From assembly GCA_000092065.1 (NCBI GenBank), contig CP000581.1: DNA of 64,000 nt. One strand, 5' to 3'. Source of the DNA: Ostreococcus lucimarinus (Eukaryota). Under the pieces are notes generated by a model. It was not told the DNA's origin. It searched no databases and saw only the letters and a list, made by a program, of their open reading frames with translations. Shown here one piece after another: positions 40,318 through 43,713 of the stretch (the first letter of the stretch is position 1; each line of letters opens with the position of its first letter). The position numbers and the translations under genes are program-made.

Positions 40318-43300
40318 TCATGGGAGCAACGTTTTTACCGTCACCGGTTGCAGACTTGTCAAAGGCGACGGTTTACGCTCCCTACGACCTCGTTGGAACT
40401 GGGGGAATCCAGTCCACTTGTCGTTATTTCTCACCTTGTGAACCTGGAAAGAGTCTGGCGACGCCGGTCGCTCGAACGCATCCGCGTTGTCTGACGCGGC
40501 ATCTTCATAGCTATCTCGTCGGGGACGGTACTTTGGCGATGATGGCCGAGACGAATTCGCCGAGCCATCTGTGTTGACTACGCTCTGTTGCCCTTCGTCC
40601 GAAAGCCTGTACCAGTTCGATCGCATCACCATATCAAGTTCAAGCTTGCCCAGCTTCGCCGCCGCGCTCGCTGCGTCAACTGAGGGTGATACCAATGGCG
40701 CAAGCGCCGGAGCCAAGTTGCCAGGATTCACAGTCGTCGCATTGAACTTCTTCGCGACGGCTGGCACGGCGTCTGTGATGATCCCGAAAACGCCGAGCTC
40801 GACTTGCGTCGACGATGCAGCGACATCATCGTTACCTTCGCCGTATGTAGCGAGAAGTAAACCACTGTCTCGAACATCGGTCGCGTCGGACGGGCGCGAT
40901 ATAATCGCCTTGACGTTCGACACAACGCCACACAAGCCACCTTCGAGCGCGACTTCCATCGCGGCAGCGACTGAACGTCGACGCGGGTCGACGTGATGGG
41001 GCTCGGCATCGGTCAATATCATCACTGGATATGAGCCCTGGATGGCACGCATGAGTAGAGCGGCATCTGGATCGAAAGATGAGAACACGATTCTGCGACT
41101 GGGTTGCGCCATGCAAACCGCTAGAATGGCGCGGAGTTCCGCGACCAAGCGGCGCGTTTCACAGCTGTTCTCTTCGTCGAACTTGAGCTCGATGTTGAAG
41201 CCAAGCTCTTTCGGCGTGTTTCCAAGAATCTGTGCCAAAGTTGGGATCTCATCTTCGACTTCCATGACCCACGGTTGAGGTTCAAGATCGCCGCCGAACA
41301 CGCGATAAAATGTCACCTTGTTGTCGTCTTCGTCGTAATCGTCGTCGTCTTCGTCGTCTTCGTCGTCGGTGGTTAAAGGAACTGTCTTTTCAACACCGAG
41401 GGCGTTGGACGCTCGCGCGGCGGTAGCGCGCGCGGCGCGAGACAGTTCGCGCAGATCCGCCCAGTCAATCTCTCGAACGCTAAACGACTCCAAAGGTCCG
41501 AGTCCGCGACGAATGATGACGACGTCGTCGTGCCAAGCGACGGGAACACCGTCTGCGGTCACTTGAACGTCAAACTCACACCACTCCGCGCCACCAGCAG
41601 AAGCCGCGTTGAACGATGCTAGCGTGTTTTCACGAATACCGGCGCCAGAAGCGCGATTCGCTTGTAAACCTCTGTGCCCGATGACGGCGCAACCGGCGGG
41701 TTCGAACAGTCCCGGAAGATGCGAAGGAAACGGAGTAGAACCAATGATCGGATGACTGACTCGTCGCTGCTCGAACCCTTTCTTCGTGTTCTTCAACCGA
41801 GAGTTCAACGTTGGATCTTTTGCCTGCGCCTCTCGACGTCGAAACGCCAACATGTCTTCGCCGTCCATCGCCCACTCGCGTCGCGTTGCGACGCCGAAAT
41901 GATCGAGAATGGTTGGCGCTATGTCTGTGTCGCACGGTGACGGCAATAACTCACCAGACATTTCAACTCTCGGACCACTTTCAATCAACACCCATCCCGC
42001 GCTGTGTTGCGGTAACTCGAGGAGTCCACTCACACCGTTTGAGCGAAGCTGACGACCGCCGCCGTCGCTCCAATCGTACGCGTCGAATTGGCCTTGCATC
42101 CCGGCGGGCATATCGTGACGACACGTACCGCCTGAAGGCGAGGTGATGACGACGAGCCAATCCTCTTCTCGATGCATCGACTGCCGAGCACGCAAAGCCG
42201 CGATGACTTCGGCAAGCTTACGATCGGCCGATTCGATTGCGTCCATATAAGTGTCGACGTGCGGACCGAAGCCGTGCCTGAAACCGGTGTTTTGAATGTC
42301 GCCCAAATGCAACAGGAGCATGTCAGGCGTCGTCGGTTCCGCAAGACATTTCGCAATCGCTTCACTCGCCTCTGCATCTGTGCTCACGGACGACGCCAAG
42401 AGCGATTTCGTCTCTTTACGAATGATCTTGTCCAGATCTTCAGCCTCGCCTATGGCGCACGCGCCTTTGATCCACGAGCGTGTTTCCTTCAGTCTATCAT
42501 AAATGGACGACAACGTCGCATCTTCGTCTTCATCGATGGCCTTCAACACGCTCACCGATTGCCCCGTGAGTATTGGTAGCATCGGCGAGTTCGCACTCGT
42601 CGAGCACCGCATCGCGCTCGCATTCATGTCGAGCGAGAAGCACGCGTTCTTGTTACCGCGAATAAACGATTTAAGCGTCGGCGTATTCGCGGTGAGCATG
42701 GCGTCCACGCGACATCCCGCAACAGCGACGAGTAAAACCTTTCGGAGCGTCGGCACGGGATGCTCCGGCTGCACGTCCGACGCGCTCTCATCCGACGCAG
42801 ATCCCGCGGCGGCGGGTGTCATCAACATGTCCGCGTCGAGCTCGTCCGCATCCGTGTCCAAGTCTCTGTCGTTGAAGTTGCGGATGAGCTCATCCAAATT
42901 CGAGTCCGGCTTGAACATTCGACCGTCGATCTTGCGATCTTCTTTCGCGCGACACACCGGACAGCGACCAGGGAACAACGCCACTTTGCTCGCCGGCGTC
43001 TTCATGATGGGAGACCCCGTCTCGGCAAGATTTGCGATGTCGTTTAAATTCGTCACCGAAGCCGTCGTGATGAGCGGCGTGCTCGCCGACGGCGCGCTGT
43101 TGATGATGCACTTGAAGCAAAACTTATGTCTGCACGTCGGCAACACCACAGGATTGCTCAGCACCTCCTCGCACACCGGGCATATGGAGTCTTCGAGCAC
43201 CTTTGCCGACTTCGTCGGCGCCGCGTGCACGGCGAGCATTTCGGTCCGAGTCACCAACTTTGCCAACCCGAGCGAATAAAACATCGGCGACTCGCTCAGA

Positions 43301-43713
43301 ATGCTCACCGCATTTTCGCTACGGTTGCAATTCTTGTTAAATTTCTTCACCGCCTTGACGACGGCGGTATAATTCAACACCACAAACTCTCTCAACTCGC
43401 TCAACTCGGGATAAAACTCGCGCACGAGCGTCTTCTTCGCCCTTCGCAACGCCGTCGCGTCCACGCTATCGCTCCGAATGTCCGTCTCCAGCGCATCCAA
43501 CCTCTCCCTCAGCGCGCGCTCTTTCGTCGCGTAGAACCCATTCGCCTTGACGATCTCATCTCGCAGCGCGTTCAAAAACCTCCGCGCGCCCTCCTCGCCG
43601 TCCGCCCCGTCCTTGGCCTCGTACACCACCCTCTTCAGCGCGCGATAATCGATGTAATGCGCCGCCCACGACGGGAACGCCTCGCTCTCGAGCCTTCGCG
43701 CGAACTTCACCAT
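40318..43713 (-). CDS. Multidomain SPX - RING (C3HC4) - type-I phosphodiesterase/nucleotide pyrophosphatase (NPP-like) - glycerophosphodiester phosphodiesterase (GDPD) protein.
   Basis: The SPX N-terminus is MVKFARRLESEAFPSWAAHYIDYRALK. The RING region reads CPVCEEVLSNPVVLPTCRHKFCFKCI...CPVC. The Phosphodiest/NPP-like core reads LLVAVAGCRVDAMLTANTPTLKSF...LLLHLGDIQNTGFRHGFG...YMDAIESADRKLAEVIAAL. The GDPD domain reads VIGHRGLQANRASGAGIRENTLASFNAA..EFDVQVTADGVPVAWHDD. Confidence 0.7.
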   Translation of the reverse strand: MVKFARRLESEAFPSWAAHYIDYRALKRVVYEAKDGADGEEGARRFLNALRDEIVKANGFYATKERALRERLDALETDIRSDSVDATALRRAKKTLVREFYPELSELREFVVLNYTAVVKAVKKFNKNCNRSENAVSILSESPMFYSLGLAKLVTRTEMLAVHAAPTKSAKVLEDSICPVCEEVLSNPVVLPTCRHKFCFKCIINSAPSASTPLITTASVTNLNDIANLAETGSPIMKTPASKVALFPGRCPVCRAKEDRKIDGRMFKPDSNLDELIRNFNDRDLDTDADELDADMLMTPAAAGSASDESASDVQPEHPVPTLRKVLLVAVAGCRVDAMLTANTPTLKSFIRGNKNACFSLDMNASAMRCSTSANSPMLPILTGQSVSVLKAIDEDEDATLSSIYDRLKETRSWIKGACAIGEAEDLDKIIRKETKSLLASSVSTDAEASEAIAKCLAEPTTPDMLLLHLGDIQNTGFRHGFGPHVDTYMDAIESADRKLAEVIAALRARQSMHREEDWLVVITSPSGGTCRHDMPAGMQGQFDAYDWSDGGGRQLRSNGVSGLLELPQHSAGWVLIESGPRVEMSGELLPSPCDTDIAPTILDHFGVATRREWAMDGEDMLAFRRREAQAKDPTLNSRLKNTKKGFEQRRVSHPIIGSTPFPSHLPGLFEPAGCAVIGHRGLQANRASGAGIRENTLASFNAASAGGAEWCEFDVQVTADGVPVAWHDDVVIIRRGLGPLESFSVREIDWADLRELSRAARATAARASNALGVEKTVPLTTDDEDDEDDDDYDEDDNKVTFYRVFGGDLEPQPWVMEVEDEIPTLAQILGNTPKELGFNIELKFDEENSCETRRLVAELRAILAVCMAQPSRRIVFSSFDPDAALLMRAIQGSYPVMILTDAEPHHVDPRRRSVAAAMEVALEGGLCGVVSNVKAIISRPSDATDVRDSGLLLATYGEGNDDVAASSTQVELGVFGIITDAVPAVAKKFNATTVNPGNLAPALAPLVSPSVDAASAAAKLGKLELDMVMRSNWYRLSDEGQQSVVNTDGSANSSRPSSPKYRPRRDSYEDAASDNADAFERPASPDSFQVHKVRNNDKWTGFPQFQRGRRERKPSPLTSLQPVTVKTLLP

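What the first reader, a model, noticed from the sequence alone, without database searches (positions are those of the whole stretch)
40318..43713. Unusual SPX - RING - NPP phosphodiesterase - GDPD super-fusion
One 1131-aa ORF combines four domains. They are a canonical SPX phosphate-sensing N-terminus, a C3HC4 RING (as in plant NLA/BAH1 SPX-RING ligases), a type-I phosphodiesterase/nucleotide pyrophosphatase core, and a glycerophosphodiester phosphodiesterase domain (as in yeast SPX-GDPD Gde1). Each pairing is known separately, but all four in one polypeptide is not an architecture I recognise. It looks like an integrated phosphate-starvation module coupling InsPP sensing, ubiquitin ligation and two organic-phosphate-scavenging esterases. 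That is relevant for an oligotrophic marine alga.
Basis: partly seen in the sequence, partly recalled or inferred. Interest (0 to 1): 0.7.

Follow-up and report, generated by a model that had tools for sequence, protein, structure and literature searches.

The report
SPX–RING–dead NPP–GDPD fusion protein
A single gene of an Ostreococcus-like marine green alga joins a phosphate-status sensor (SPX), a ubiquitin-ligase RING finger, a catalytically dead phosphodiesterase-like domain and one intact glycerophosphodiesterase; the fusion is conserved in its relatives but apparently undescribed in the literature.

Summary
The 1131-aa ORF at 40318-43713 (-) is real and is one gene. Orthologues with the same domain order occur in Ostreococcus, Bathycoccus-like, Micromonas-like and Mantoniella sequences. 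Complete transcripts exist (Ostreococcus sp. RCC789, Mantoniella), and O. tauri RefSeq XP_003074482.2 is a full-length 1141-aa model named only "glycerophosphoryl diester phosphodiesterase".

All six metal ligands of NPP are replaced: A332, Q474, F478, P526, S527, S562. The nucleophile motif is also lost. The domain nevertheless stays 46-64% identical between genera, against 10-15% for linkers. It is therefore a conserved pseudoenzyme, not a second esterase.

Related layouts exist:
- SPX-RING-active NPP in an unknown eukaryote.
- SPX-RING-pseudo-NPP without GDPD in Cymbomonas and Pyramimonas.
- SPX-RING-GDPD in Saprolegnia.

This is a new variant of known SPX-effector fusions, of moderate interest.

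The parts
40318..43713 (-). Whole gene: uninterrupted 1131-codon ORF plus stop codon (40318-40320)
   Evidence: One search lists the ORF and one search checks the coordinates. The identical protein P0001 occurs on 58 or more marine contigs. Orthologues are collinear over the full length.
43210..43713 (-). SPX domain (aa 1-168) with an intact inositol-pyrophosphate-binding basic surface: Y23, K27, K120, K123, K124, K127
   Evidence: Pfam E=2.9e-17. It aligns over its full length to the human XPR1 SPX domain 8tyu (E=1.4e-10) and to yeast Vtc3. The YxxxK motif and the KxxKKxxK helix are matched. K120, K123, K124 and K127 are invariant in 26 of 26 sequences.
42934..43191 (-). C3HC4 RING finger (aa 175-260). 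Zn ligands are C178, C181, C194, H196, C199, C202, C251 and C254. A disordered 42-aa loop (aa 207-248, nt 42970-43095) lies between ligands 6 and 7
   Evidence: Pfam RING models score E=8e-7 to 5e-5. All eight ligands are invariant in 26 of 26 sequences. Position 180 is V, I or L, and position 255 is R or K in every sequence. The loop has pLDDT below 50.
42748..42867 (-). Acidic, poorly conserved linker 1 (aa 283-322)
   Evidence: Identity between genera is 11-16% and pLDDT is below 50.
41839..42747 (-). Pseudo-NPP domain (aa 323-625). It has an alkaline-phosphatase-superfamily fold derived from the PF01663 family, with all six metal ligands substituted: A332, Q474, F478, P526, S527, S562
41734..41838 (-). 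Basic linker 2 (aa 626-660)
   Evidence: Identity between genera is 9-14% and pLDDT is below 50.
40744..41733 (-). GDPD glycerophosphodiesterase domain (aa 661-990). Catalytic residues H680, R681, E695, N696, E713, D715, H728, D729, E842 and K844 are intact. It contains a disordered acidic insert (aa 766-800, nt 41314-41418)
   Evidence: Pfam E=7.8e-33. Both halves align to solved GDPD structures 3qvq, 5t91 and 2pz0. All listed residues are invariant in 26 of 26 sequences. The nearest named relatives are plant GDPD1-3.
40321..40743 (-). C-terminal tail (aa 991-1131). It is mostly disordered and has two short conserved motifs: LELDxVxRSxWYxLSxEG around aa 1024-1041, and W-x-x-F/Y-P around aa 1100-1107
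   Evidence: Alignment (E1025, L1026, W1034, Y1035, L1037 and S1038 are conserved). pLDDT is below 50. No Pfam hit.
43714..44210 (.). GC-rich intergenic and promoter region, shared with a divergently transcribed rhodanese-like gene. It contains no P1BS (GNATATNC) element
   Evidence: Sequence read. The pattern search found 4 sites in the window against 4.8 expected, none of them here.

Best explanation
This is one cytosolic multidomain protein of a Mamiellophyceae (Ostreococcus-type) alga. It joins a phosphate-status receptor to two effectors.

(1) The N-terminal SPX domain binds inositol pyrophosphates, whose level reports cellular phosphate status. This step is inferred from the conserved binding residues.

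(2) The RING finger recruits an E2 enzyme and ubiquitinates targets or the protein itself, as SPX-RING ligases such as plant NLA and fission-yeast Spx1 do. This step is inferred from the intact Zn ligands, the E2-contact hydrophobic residue and the R/K 'linchpin' position.

(3) The third domain descends from a short NPP-type phosphodiesterase but has lost its whole bimetal site. This is shown by sequence and fold. It probably acts as a non-catalytic scaffold, spacer or ligand- or partner-binding module, in the position that ankyrin repeats occupy in fungal Gde1. That role is an inference.

(4) The C-terminal GDPD domain is the only working esterase. It would hydrolyse glycerophosphodiesters derived from deacylated phospholipids to glycerol-3-phosphate plus an alcohol, recycling lipid phosphorus. 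The active site is shown to be intact, but the substrate is inferred from plant GDPD1-3 relatives.

The likely logic is that SPX occupancy sets the activity or stability of the attached enzyme and ligase according to phosphate status.
For: Single gene:
- The ORF is continuous.
- Orthologues in at least four genera are collinear.
- Complete transcripts exist from Ostreococcus sp. RCC789 (1136 aa) and Mantoniella beaufortii (1296 aa), and O. tauri RefSeq holds a 1141-aa model.

SPX:
- Pfam E=3e-17.
- Full-length alignment to the XPR1 and Vtc3 SPX domains, with Y23, K27 and the K120/K123/K124/K127 cluster conserved.

RING:
- Eight Zn ligands are invariant, and V/I/L180 and R/K255 are conserved.

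Pseudo-NPP:
- Profile hits to PF01663 members at E 1e-47 to 1e-25.
- The active relative P0102 aligns to XacNPP 2gsn at E=2e-9, which fixes the positions of D54, T90, D210, H214, D257, H258 and H363.
- In the family these positions are A/P, an unconserved residue, Q (26 of 26), F/A/H/V/M, P, S/A and S/T.
- Identity between genera is 46-64%, against 9-16% for the two interdomain linkers.

GDPD:
- Pfam E=8e-33, with all catalytic residues invariant.
- Plant GDPD1-3 are the nearest named relatives, at 33-36% identity and E about 1e-40.

Precedent:
- In fission yeast, SPX inositol-pyrophosphate binding together with GDPD catalysis (Gde1), or together with RING integrity (Spx1), is required for function (PMC8749416).
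Against: - No biochemical or expression data were found for this protein or any orthologue. Six full-text searches were run, covering phosphate-limitation, SPX-family and algal genomics papers. Ten papers from them were opened for term look-ups and none mentions it.
- No phosphate-related neighbours and no P1BS motif occur in the promoter region.
- The full-length AlphaFold model has pTM 0.38, so nothing supports any particular contact or allosteric path between domains.
- The RING itself has low pLDDT, as expected for a model without Zn.
- Orthology of the SPX-RING part to plant NLA could not be shown. The search returned only fragments of the same family.
- The nucleophile position is ambiguous because of a 3-residue indel. 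S371 is present in 14 of 26 sequences.
- Some metal-free activity or ligand binding by the pseudo-NPP domain cannot be excluded.
Confidence: 0.6

Rival explanations
1. Both the NPP-like and the GDPD domains are active esterases, so the protein carries two phosphodiester-scavenging activities under SPX and RING control.
For: The domain has the alkaline-phosphatase/NPP fold and belongs to the NPP family by transitive homology. It is well conserved. Some family motifs shared with active relatives survive: HGFGPH, GGTxRxDMP, PQH. S371 could in principle act as a nucleophile in some species.
Against: All six metal ligands (D54, D210, H214, D257, H258, H363 of XacNPP) are replaced by residues that cannot bind metal or are unsuitable: A, Q, F, P, S, S. 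The substitutions are consistent across 26 orthologues. The S-G-P-S/N-W nucleophile motif and the HGxxxN motif are gone. Position 371 is Gly in 12 of 26 sequences. The closest relatives that keep all these residues show what an active version looks like.
Confidence: 0.05
2. The protein is a self-regulating enzyme. Its main job is GDPD catalysis, and the SPX-RING module is a built-in phosphate-dependent degron. When inositol pyrophosphates are high (phosphate replete), SPX activates the RING, which auto-ubiquitinates the protein and removes GDPD. Under phosphate stress the enzyme is stabilised.
For: The RING and SPX modules look intact. Long disordered, Lys-containing linkers and a disordered tail could accept ubiquitin. 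Plant SPX-RING NLA promotes degradation of phosphate transporters under phosphate sufficiency (PMC11528361). No phosphate-responsive promoter motif was found, which fits post-translational control.
Against: This is pure inference with no data on turnover. Prasinophyte SPX-RING-pseudoNPP proteins lack GDPD altogether. The SPX-RING-pseudoNPP unit therefore has a function of its own beyond controlling GDPD.
Confidence: 0.2
3. The protein is primarily an NLA-like E3 ligase. The pseudo-NPP domain, and possibly GDPD, serve as substrate-recognition or localisation modules, for example by docking to phospholipid head-groups or phosphate-transport proteins. GDPD catalysis would be secondary.
Against: The GDPD catalytic residues are invariant in 26 of 26 sequences, and GDPD is the best-conserved domain. 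That argues for maintained catalysis. No targets are known.
Confidence: 0.12
4. The ORF is a gene-model or assembly artefact. Two or three adjacent genes, or exons separated by in-frame introns, merely read through as one ORF.
For: Introns do exist in this genome. The neighbouring kinase gene has a 168-nt GT-AG intron. The O. lucimarinus NCBI model covers only the GDPD part.
Against: There are 3393 nt without a stop codon. The identical ORF occurs on many independent metagenome contigs. MMETSP transcripts marked complete encode the entire fusion in two genera. The O. tauri RefSeq model is full length. Linkers are variable but always in frame in all orthologues.
Confidence: 0.02

Closest known systems
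Ostreococcus tauri XP_003074482.2 / CEF96767.1 (UniRef A0A090M2M9), 'Glycerophosphoryl diester phosphodiesterase', 1141 aa
   Same: It is the orthologue: 73% identical and collinear, with SPX, RING and GDPD detected by Pfam and the same undetected middle domain.
   Different: It comes from a different Ostreococcus species. It is annotated only by its GDPD domain, and the searched literature holds no functional study of it or comment on its architecture.
Plant NLA/BAH1 and fission-yeast Spx1 (SPX-RING E3 ligases)
   Same: An N-terminal SPX domain is followed by a C3HC4 RING. In Spx1 both the inositol-pyrophosphate-binding residues and the RING Zn ligands are needed for function (PMC8749416). 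NLA ubiquitinates phosphate transporters (PMC11528361).
   Different: In those proteins the RING ends the polypeptide. Here about 870 more residues follow, comprising the pseudo-NPP, GDPD and tail. Sequence orthology to NLA was not demonstrated. A published survey reported no NLA-class protein in chlorophytes (PMC8717665).
Fungal Gde1 (SPX-ankyrin-GDPD glycerophosphocholine phosphodiesterase)
   Same: SPX lies at the N-terminus and an active GDPD at the C-terminus of one protein. The same H-R, E-x-D and H catalytic residues are present, and their mutation abolishes function in S. pombe.
   Different: The spacer is RING plus pseudo-NPP instead of ankyrin repeats (no Ank hit). The GDPD domain is closest to plant GDPD1-3 rather than to Gde1 among named hits, so the fusion probably arose independently.
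Xanthomonas NPP (2gsn) and the ENPP family, PF01663
   Different: None of the six Zn ligands is retained. The nucleophile motif is lost and the Pfam score is below threshold. The domain is a short form of about 300 aa.
YejM/PbgA periplasmic domain and other non-catalytic alkaline-phosphatase-fold domains
   Different: It is bacterial, periplasmic and membrane-anchored, with no sequence relationship beyond the superfamily. Its ligands (LPS, cardiolipin) are unrelated to any role known here.
Saprolegnia diclina SDRG_10388 (XP_008614598.1), 629 aa
   Same: It has SPX, RING and GDPD in one polypeptide. Its SPX-RING part is 32% identical to the window protein.
   Different: It has no NPP-like domain, with only about 86 aa between RING and GDPD. 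Its RING is compact. It comes from an oomycete and is an uncharacterised hypothetical protein.
Cymbomonas tetramitiformis KAK3269859.1 and Pyramimonas sp. CCMP2087 transcript (800-840 aa)
   Same: They have SPX, a RING with the same long loop and CPVCR ending, and a degenerate NPP-like domain.
   Different: They have no GDPD domain, and their NPP-like domain is even more degenerate.

Membership tests
SPX domain (PF03105) | Pfam score above the gathering threshold, with an N-terminal helical bundle | tested here: met
   64.2 bits against a threshold of 27.8. The model is helical with pLDDT 75-90 over aa 20-160. It aligns to the XPR1 SPX domain 8tyu at E=1.4e-10.
SPX domain (PF03105) | Phosphate-binding cluster and lysine surface cluster (Y, K and KxxKKxxK) that bind InsP/PP-InsP | tested here: met
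   Y23 and K27 align to XPR1 Y22 and K26. K120, K123, K124 and K127 align to the XPR1 LKKHDK helix. The four Lys are invariant in 26 of 26 sequences.
SPX domain (PF03105) | Actual binding of inositol pyrophosphates | not testable with these tools
   This needs ITC or another binding assay.
SPX-RING E3 ligases (plant NLA class IV; S. pombe Spx1) | SPX followed by a C3HC4 RING with all eight Zn ligands | tested here: met
   C178, C181, C194, H196, C199, C202, C251 and C254 are invariant. Several Pfam RING models hit.
SPX-RING E3 ligases (plant NLA class IV; S. pombe Spx1) | Two-domain architecture with the RING at the C-terminal end | tested here: not met
   About 870 residues with two further domains follow the RING.
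SPX-RING E3 ligases (plant NLA class IV; S. pombe Spx1) | Sequence orthology to NLA | tested here: inconclusive
   A search with aa 1-290 returned only fragments of the same family. The word-index search may miss distant NLA proteins.
Fungal Gde1-type SPX-GDPD | SPX and an active-site-intact GDPD in one polypeptide | tested here: met
Fungal Gde1-type SPX-GDPD | Ankyrin-repeat region between SPX and GDPD | tested here: not met
   Pfam finds no ankyrin hit at E up to 1. The region holds a RING and an alkaline-phosphatase-fold domain.
Fungal Gde1-type SPX-GDPD | GDPD domain most closely related to Gde1/GPCPD1 | tested here: not met
   The nearest named relatives are plant GDPD1, GDPD2 and GDPD3 at E about 1e-40. 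No fungal Gde1 appears among the top 120 hits.
NPP / type I phosphodiesterase (PF01663) | Pfam gathering score | tested here: not met
   15.8 bits against 23. Orthologues score 14-20 bits.
NPP / type I phosphodiesterase (PF01663) | Alkaline-phosphatase-superfamily alpha/beta fold | tested here: met
NPP / type I phosphodiesterase (PF01663) | Homology to bona fide family members | tested here: met
   The profile search gives 922 hits at E<1e-10. Of the 25 hits sampled outside the window protein's own SPX-RING-(pseudo)NPP lineages (27 distinct proteins scanned in all), all score 45-131 bits on PF01663.
NPP / type I phosphodiesterase (PF01663) | Six metal ligands (XacNPP D54, D210, H214, D257, H258, H363) | tested here: not met
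   The window protein has A332, Q474, F478, P526, S527 and S562. The map was fixed through P0102 aligned to 2gsn and a MAFFT alignment with nine active relatives.
NPP / type I phosphodiesterase (PF01663) | Thr/Ser nucleophile in the conserved (T/S)-x-P-N/S-(H/W) motif | tested here: not met
   The motif is absent. The aligned position is S371 or A374, depending on where a 3-aa indel is placed, and it is G or P in many orthologues.
GDPD (PF03009) | Pfam gathering score across the whole profile | tested here: met
   115 bits against 23.6, covering profile positions 1-242 of 244.
GDPD (PF03009) | Catalytic His pair, Arg, and metal-binding Glu/Asp/Glu with Lys | tested here: met
   H680, R681, E713, D715, H728, E842 and K844 are invariant in 26 of 26 sequences. 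They align with solved GDPD structures and correspond to the residues mutated in S. pombe Gde1.
GDPD (PF03009) | Glycerophosphodiester hydrolysis and substrate range | not testable with these tools
   This needs an enzyme assay.

The most novel reading that the evidence does not exclude
SPX-RING-(pseudo)NPP is a distinct, ancient and so far unnamed class of SPX proteins in prasinophyte green algae and some other protists. In it, a once-active NPP phosphodiesterase became a non-catalytic sensor or adaptor domain for the E3 ligase. Mamiellophyceae then added a GDPD. The result would be a self-contained switch that couples inositol-pyrophosphate sensing, ubiquitination and membrane-lipid phosphorus recycling in some of the ocean's most abundant picoeukaryotes.
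Probability: 0.25. Interest if true: 0.65.

Novelty: new variant of a known kind. Interest (0 to 1): 0.5.

Why it matters
SPX domains are the universal eukaryotic receptors for phosphate status. The effectors they control, namely transporters, polyphosphate polymerase, RING ligases and GDPD, are normally separate proteins. Here two effector types that are separate genes in fungi (Spx1 and Gde1) sit on a single SPX receptor, together with a conserved dead enzyme domain. The protein occurs in Ostreococcus, Bathycoccus, Micromonas and Mantoniella, which dominate picoeukaryotic phytoplankton in many phosphorus-poor waters.

It offers a compact natural system for asking how one SPX domain gates several outputs. 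It also shows that chlorophytes do have SPX-RING proteins, although a published survey reported none for Ostreococcus. A likely reason is that the O. lucimarinus gene model is truncated. Finally, it adds an example of an NPP-family pseudoenzyme whose role can be tested.

It is not a new principle. SPX-effector fusion and pseudoenzyme scaffolds are both established ideas, and the gene is already in public databases under a partial name.

Tried and rejected
- **Plain scans of the middle domain.** Pfam and NCBIfam give only sub-threshold or no hits. This was resolved by the profile search and the fold search.
- **Profile against PDB sequences.** This gave only E=0.007 to XacNPP. It was useful as a pointer but not sufficient on its own.
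- **Phosphate-starvation promoter element.** No P1BS (GNATATNC) site lies near the gene, and the window count is at chance level.
- **Genomic context.** The neighbours are taxilin, TRIP4-like, rhodanese-like, sybindin and CDK-like kinase genes. They give no phosphate-related clue and no operon-like logic.
- **Homologue search with the SPX-RING part.** It returned only fragments of the same family, so the relationship to NLA remains open.
- **Full-length AlphaFold model.** pTM is 0.38, so it gives no reliable arrangement of domains.
- **AFDB Foldseek library.** It was not available.
- **NCBIfam naming of the active short-NPP relatives.** No specific family was found.
- **Amino-acid variation within the species.** Only 1-5 differences per sequence were seen, too few to compare domains.
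- **Literature.** Six full-text searches and term look-ups in ten papers found no description of this architecture and no expression data for it.
- **Rejected: gene-fusion artefact.** Complete transcripts and the RefSeq model encode the whole protein.
- **Rejected: active NPP.** All six metal ligands are lost.
- **Rejected: direct orthology of the GDPD domain to yeast Gde1.** The nearest named relatives are plant GDPD1-3.

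
Full report
**Observation**

The window holds one ORF at 40318..43713 on the minus strand, with an ATG start and 1131 aa (coordinates rechecked).

Pfam gives these results:
- GDPD PF03009: E=7.8e-33, aa 680-983, covering almost the whole profile.
- SPX PF03105: E=2.9e-17.
- Several C3HC4 RING models: E about 1e-6, at aa 178-206.
- NPP family PF01663: only E=0.011 and 15.8 bits, below the gathering score of 23, covering aa 442-512.

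Sequence matches to solved structures agree for three domains: the SPX domains of XPR1, Vtc3 and OsSPX1; the RING domains of TRIM and RING2; and bacterial GDPDs. Three of the four domain calls therefore pass a plain scan, and the fourth needed more work.

**One gene or several**

- The identical protein (P0001) is encoded on dozens of independent marine metagenome contigs with the same neighbours.
- Twenty-five further homologues, at 35-79% identity, are collinear from the SPX C-terminal helix to the end of GDPD.
- Named members of these clusters are O. tauri XP_003074482.2 / CEF96767.1, Ostreococcus sp. RCC789 and Mantoniella beaufortii. The O. tauri entry is a full-length 1141-aa RefSeq model called 'Glycerophosphoryl diester phosphodiesterase'. 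The RCC789 records are MMETSP transcripts of 1136 aa flagged complete (taxid 548131). The Mantoniella record is a complete transcript of 1296 aa.
- Many metagenomic models of Micromonas-like orthologues lack the first SPX helices. The Mantoniella transcript has them, so those truncations come from gene calling.
- The neighbouring kinase gene has a 168-nt GT-AG intron, so introns exist in this genome. Nothing in the alignment suggests one inside this ORF.

GC content of about 60% and the identity pattern point to an Ostreococcus species. That species is not O. tauri (73% identity) and not O. lucimarinus CCE9901, whose NCBI model is 90% identical but is only a partial 314-aa GDPD fragment.

**SPX, RING and GDPD look functional**

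*SPX.* The domain aligns end to end with human XPR1 SPX (8tyu, E=1.4e-10) and yeast Vtc3.
- Y23 and K27 match the YxxxK motif.
- K120, K123, K124 and K127 match the KxxKKxxK helix that forms the inositol-polyphosphate-binding surface. The four lysines are invariant in 26 of 26 sequences.

*RING.* All eight Zn ligands (C178, C181, C194, H196, C199, C202, C251, C254) are invariant.
- The residue after the first Cys-Pro is always V, I or L.
- The residue after the last Cys is always R or K.
- From general knowledge of RING E3 ligases, these are the E2-contact and 'linchpin' positions. That reading is an inference.
- A 48-residue variable loop, predicted disordered, separates ligands 6 and 7.

*GDPD.* H680, R681, E695, N696, E713, D715, H728, D729, E842 and K844 are invariant.
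- They align with solved GDPD structures in both halves of the barrel.
- They correspond to the residues whose mutation inactivates S. pombe Gde1 (PMC8749416).
- A disordered acidic insert (aa 766-800) interrupts the barrel in all orthologues.
- The closest named relatives of this domain are plant GDPD1, GDPD2 and GDPD3 (33-36% identity, E about 1e-40). They are not fungal Gde1.

**The middle domain**

I aligned aa 318-632 with twelve orthologues (A2).
- A profile search against PDB sequences gave only E=0.007 to Xanthomonas NPP. The two aligned segments were collinear and covered known catalytic motifs.

The fold is therefore certain, but structure alone does not resolve the subfamily.

The full HMM search of 1.84 billion representative proteins settled it, with 1905 hits at E<1e-3 and 922 at E<1e-10. 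Outside the family these hits are mostly proteins or domains of about 300 aa, and they are clear PF01663 members (45-131 bits).

**The middle domain is catalytically dead**

One active-looking relative (P0102) aligns to XacNPP 2gsn at E=2e-9 over 220 residues. This fixes the equivalents of D54, T90 (nucleophile), D210, H214, D257, H258 and H363.

A MAFFT alignment of seven family members with nine such relatives, and column counts over 26 orthologues, give this map:

| XacNPP residue | Window protein | Across 26 orthologues |
|---|---|---|
| D54 | A332 | A 21, P 4, D 1 |
| D210 | Q474 | Q 26 |
| H214 | F478 | F, A, H, V, M or S |
| D257 | P526 | P 25, S 1 |
| H258 | S527 | S, A or G |
| H363 | S562 | S, T or Y |

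- The S-G-P-S/N-W nucleophile motif and the following HGxxxN motif are gone.
- The aligned nucleophile position is S371 or A374, depending on where a 3-residue indel falls, and it is not conserved.
- All nine relatives keep every one of these residues.
- Non-catalytic motifs of the subfamily are retained: HGFGPH, EDWL, GGTxRxDMP, PQH and GE(L/I)LPxPxDxD(I/V)xPT.
- The domain is 46-64% identical between genera. Linkers are 9-16% identical and GDPD is 61-70% identical.

This is the signature of a pseudoenzyme kept under selection for a non-catalytic role. The idea of two scavenging esterases is not supported.

**Relatives with other layouts**

- P0086 (611 aa, single short contig, organism unknown) is SPX-RING-NPP with all catalytic residues present.
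- Cymbomonas tetramitiformis KAK3269859.1 and a Pyramimonas transcript are SPX-RING-degenerate NPP without GDPD. Their SPX and RING resemble the window protein, including the long RING loop.
- P0029, P0080 and P0181 are more distant SPX-RING-degenerate NPP-GDPD proteins.
- Saprolegnia diclina SDRG_10388 is SPX-RING-GDPD without the NPP-like domain.

The most economical reading, which is an inference, has two parts. An SPX-RING-NPP unit is old and its NPP lost catalysis early in prasinophytes. GDPD was then added in the lineage leading to Mamiellophyceae.

**How it probably works**

Shown here:
- An intact PP-InsP-binding surface on SPX.
- An intact RING.
- A dead NPP-like domain.
- An intact GDPD active site.
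- Long disordered linkers, and no confident packing between domains (full-length model pTM 0.38).

Inferred:
- The SPX domain reads phosphate status through inositol pyrophosphates and sets the output of the attached modules.
- The RING ubiquitinates targets or the protein itself.
- GDPD releases glycerol-3-phosphate from deacylated phospholipids during phosphorus recycling.
- The pseudo-NPP domain acts as a scaffold or binding module, in the place taken by ankyrin repeats in Gde1.

Fission-yeast genetics shows that SPX binding together with GDPD catalysis, and SPX binding together with RING integrity, are each functionally coupled. That supports the general logic.

I found no expression or biochemical data for this gene. 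I found no P1BS-type promoter element and no informative neighbours.

**Comparison with what is known, and novelty**

Each pairing has precedent: SPX-RING in NLA and Spx1, and SPX-GDPD in Gde1. The gene is already in RefSeq and UniProt for O. tauri under a GDPD name. However:
- A family survey that included O. lucimarinus found only two SPX proteins there and stated that NLA-type proteins are absent from chlorophytes (PMC8717665). A likely reason is that the O. lucimarinus model is a truncated GDPD fragment.
- A 2026 review still lists only the four plant SPX classes (PMC13153306).
- The conserved pseudo-NPP domain goes undetected by Pfam in the O. tauri orthologue. It is not reflected in the source names I saw, which mention only GDPD.

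I rate this a new variant of a known kind and of moderate interest (0.5). It is a real, conserved and ecologically widespread fusion with a clear set of tests.

Noticed in passing
window 37599-39566 (-), intron 39021-39188: The neighbouring CDK-like kinase gene (PITAIRE-type motif FPITAIREIKIL) is split by a canonical 168-nt GT-AG intron. Exon 1 ends at ...GEGTYGQ and exon 2 starts at VYMARCKETQ. This shows that spliceosomal introns occur in this otherwise compact genome.
   Followed up: partly
window 44211-44513 (+) and intergenic 43714-44210: A rhodanese-like ORF (PF00581, E=1.7e-4, C-terminal half only) is transcribed divergently from the SPX gene. The two share a GC-rich intergenic region full of GCGACG-type short repeats. 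The upstream part of that gene was not resolved, because a 170-aa model exists on related contigs but its coordinates did not translate cleanly here.
   Followed up: partly
window 39584-40171 (-) and 44578-46017 (-): The flanking genes are a sybindin/TRAPP subunit (PF04099, E=8e-34) and a TRIP4-like protein (PF23134, E=9e-14). The gene order taxilin, TRIP4, small ORF, SPX gene, sybindin, kinase is conserved on metagenome contigs.
   Followed up: partly
P0230 (Ostreococcus lucimarinus CCE9901, NCBI): The O. lucimarinus reference annotation holds only a 'predicted protein, partial' of 314 aa, covering just the GDPD domain of the orthologue. This probably explains why published SPX-family surveys that used this genome missed the SPX-RING fusion.
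   Followed up: partly
P0413 (NCBI MDA9098124.1): A Micromonas-like orthologue of 1271 aa is deposited as 'glycerophosphodiester phosphodiesterase family protein [bacterium]'. This looks like a eukaryotic contig mis-binned into a bacterial metagenome-assembled genome.
   Followed up: no
window 40321-40743 (-), aa 991-1131: The tail after GDPD is predicted disordered but carries two motifs conserved across genera: LELDxVxRSxWYxLSxEG around aa 1024-1041, and W-x-x-F/Y-P around aa 1100-1107. Their function is unknown and they may be short linear interaction motifs.
   Followed up: no
P0086 (611 aa, Logan contig of 2086 bp): An SPX-RING-NPP protein with every NPP catalytic residue intact, from an unidentified eukaryote. 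It may represent the ancestral active form of the fusion. Only one such sequence was seen, and its completeness is unverified.
   Followed up: partly
P0098, P0225, P0093 and other hits: The short NPP subfamily related to the middle domain is fused to many other modules elsewhere. Examples are D123, a 2OG-Fe(II) oxygenase, peptidase M1, and (in likely bacterial proteins) laminin-G, BNR and SASA domains with Por secretion tails. The subfamily has no specific NCBIfam name.
   Followed up: no
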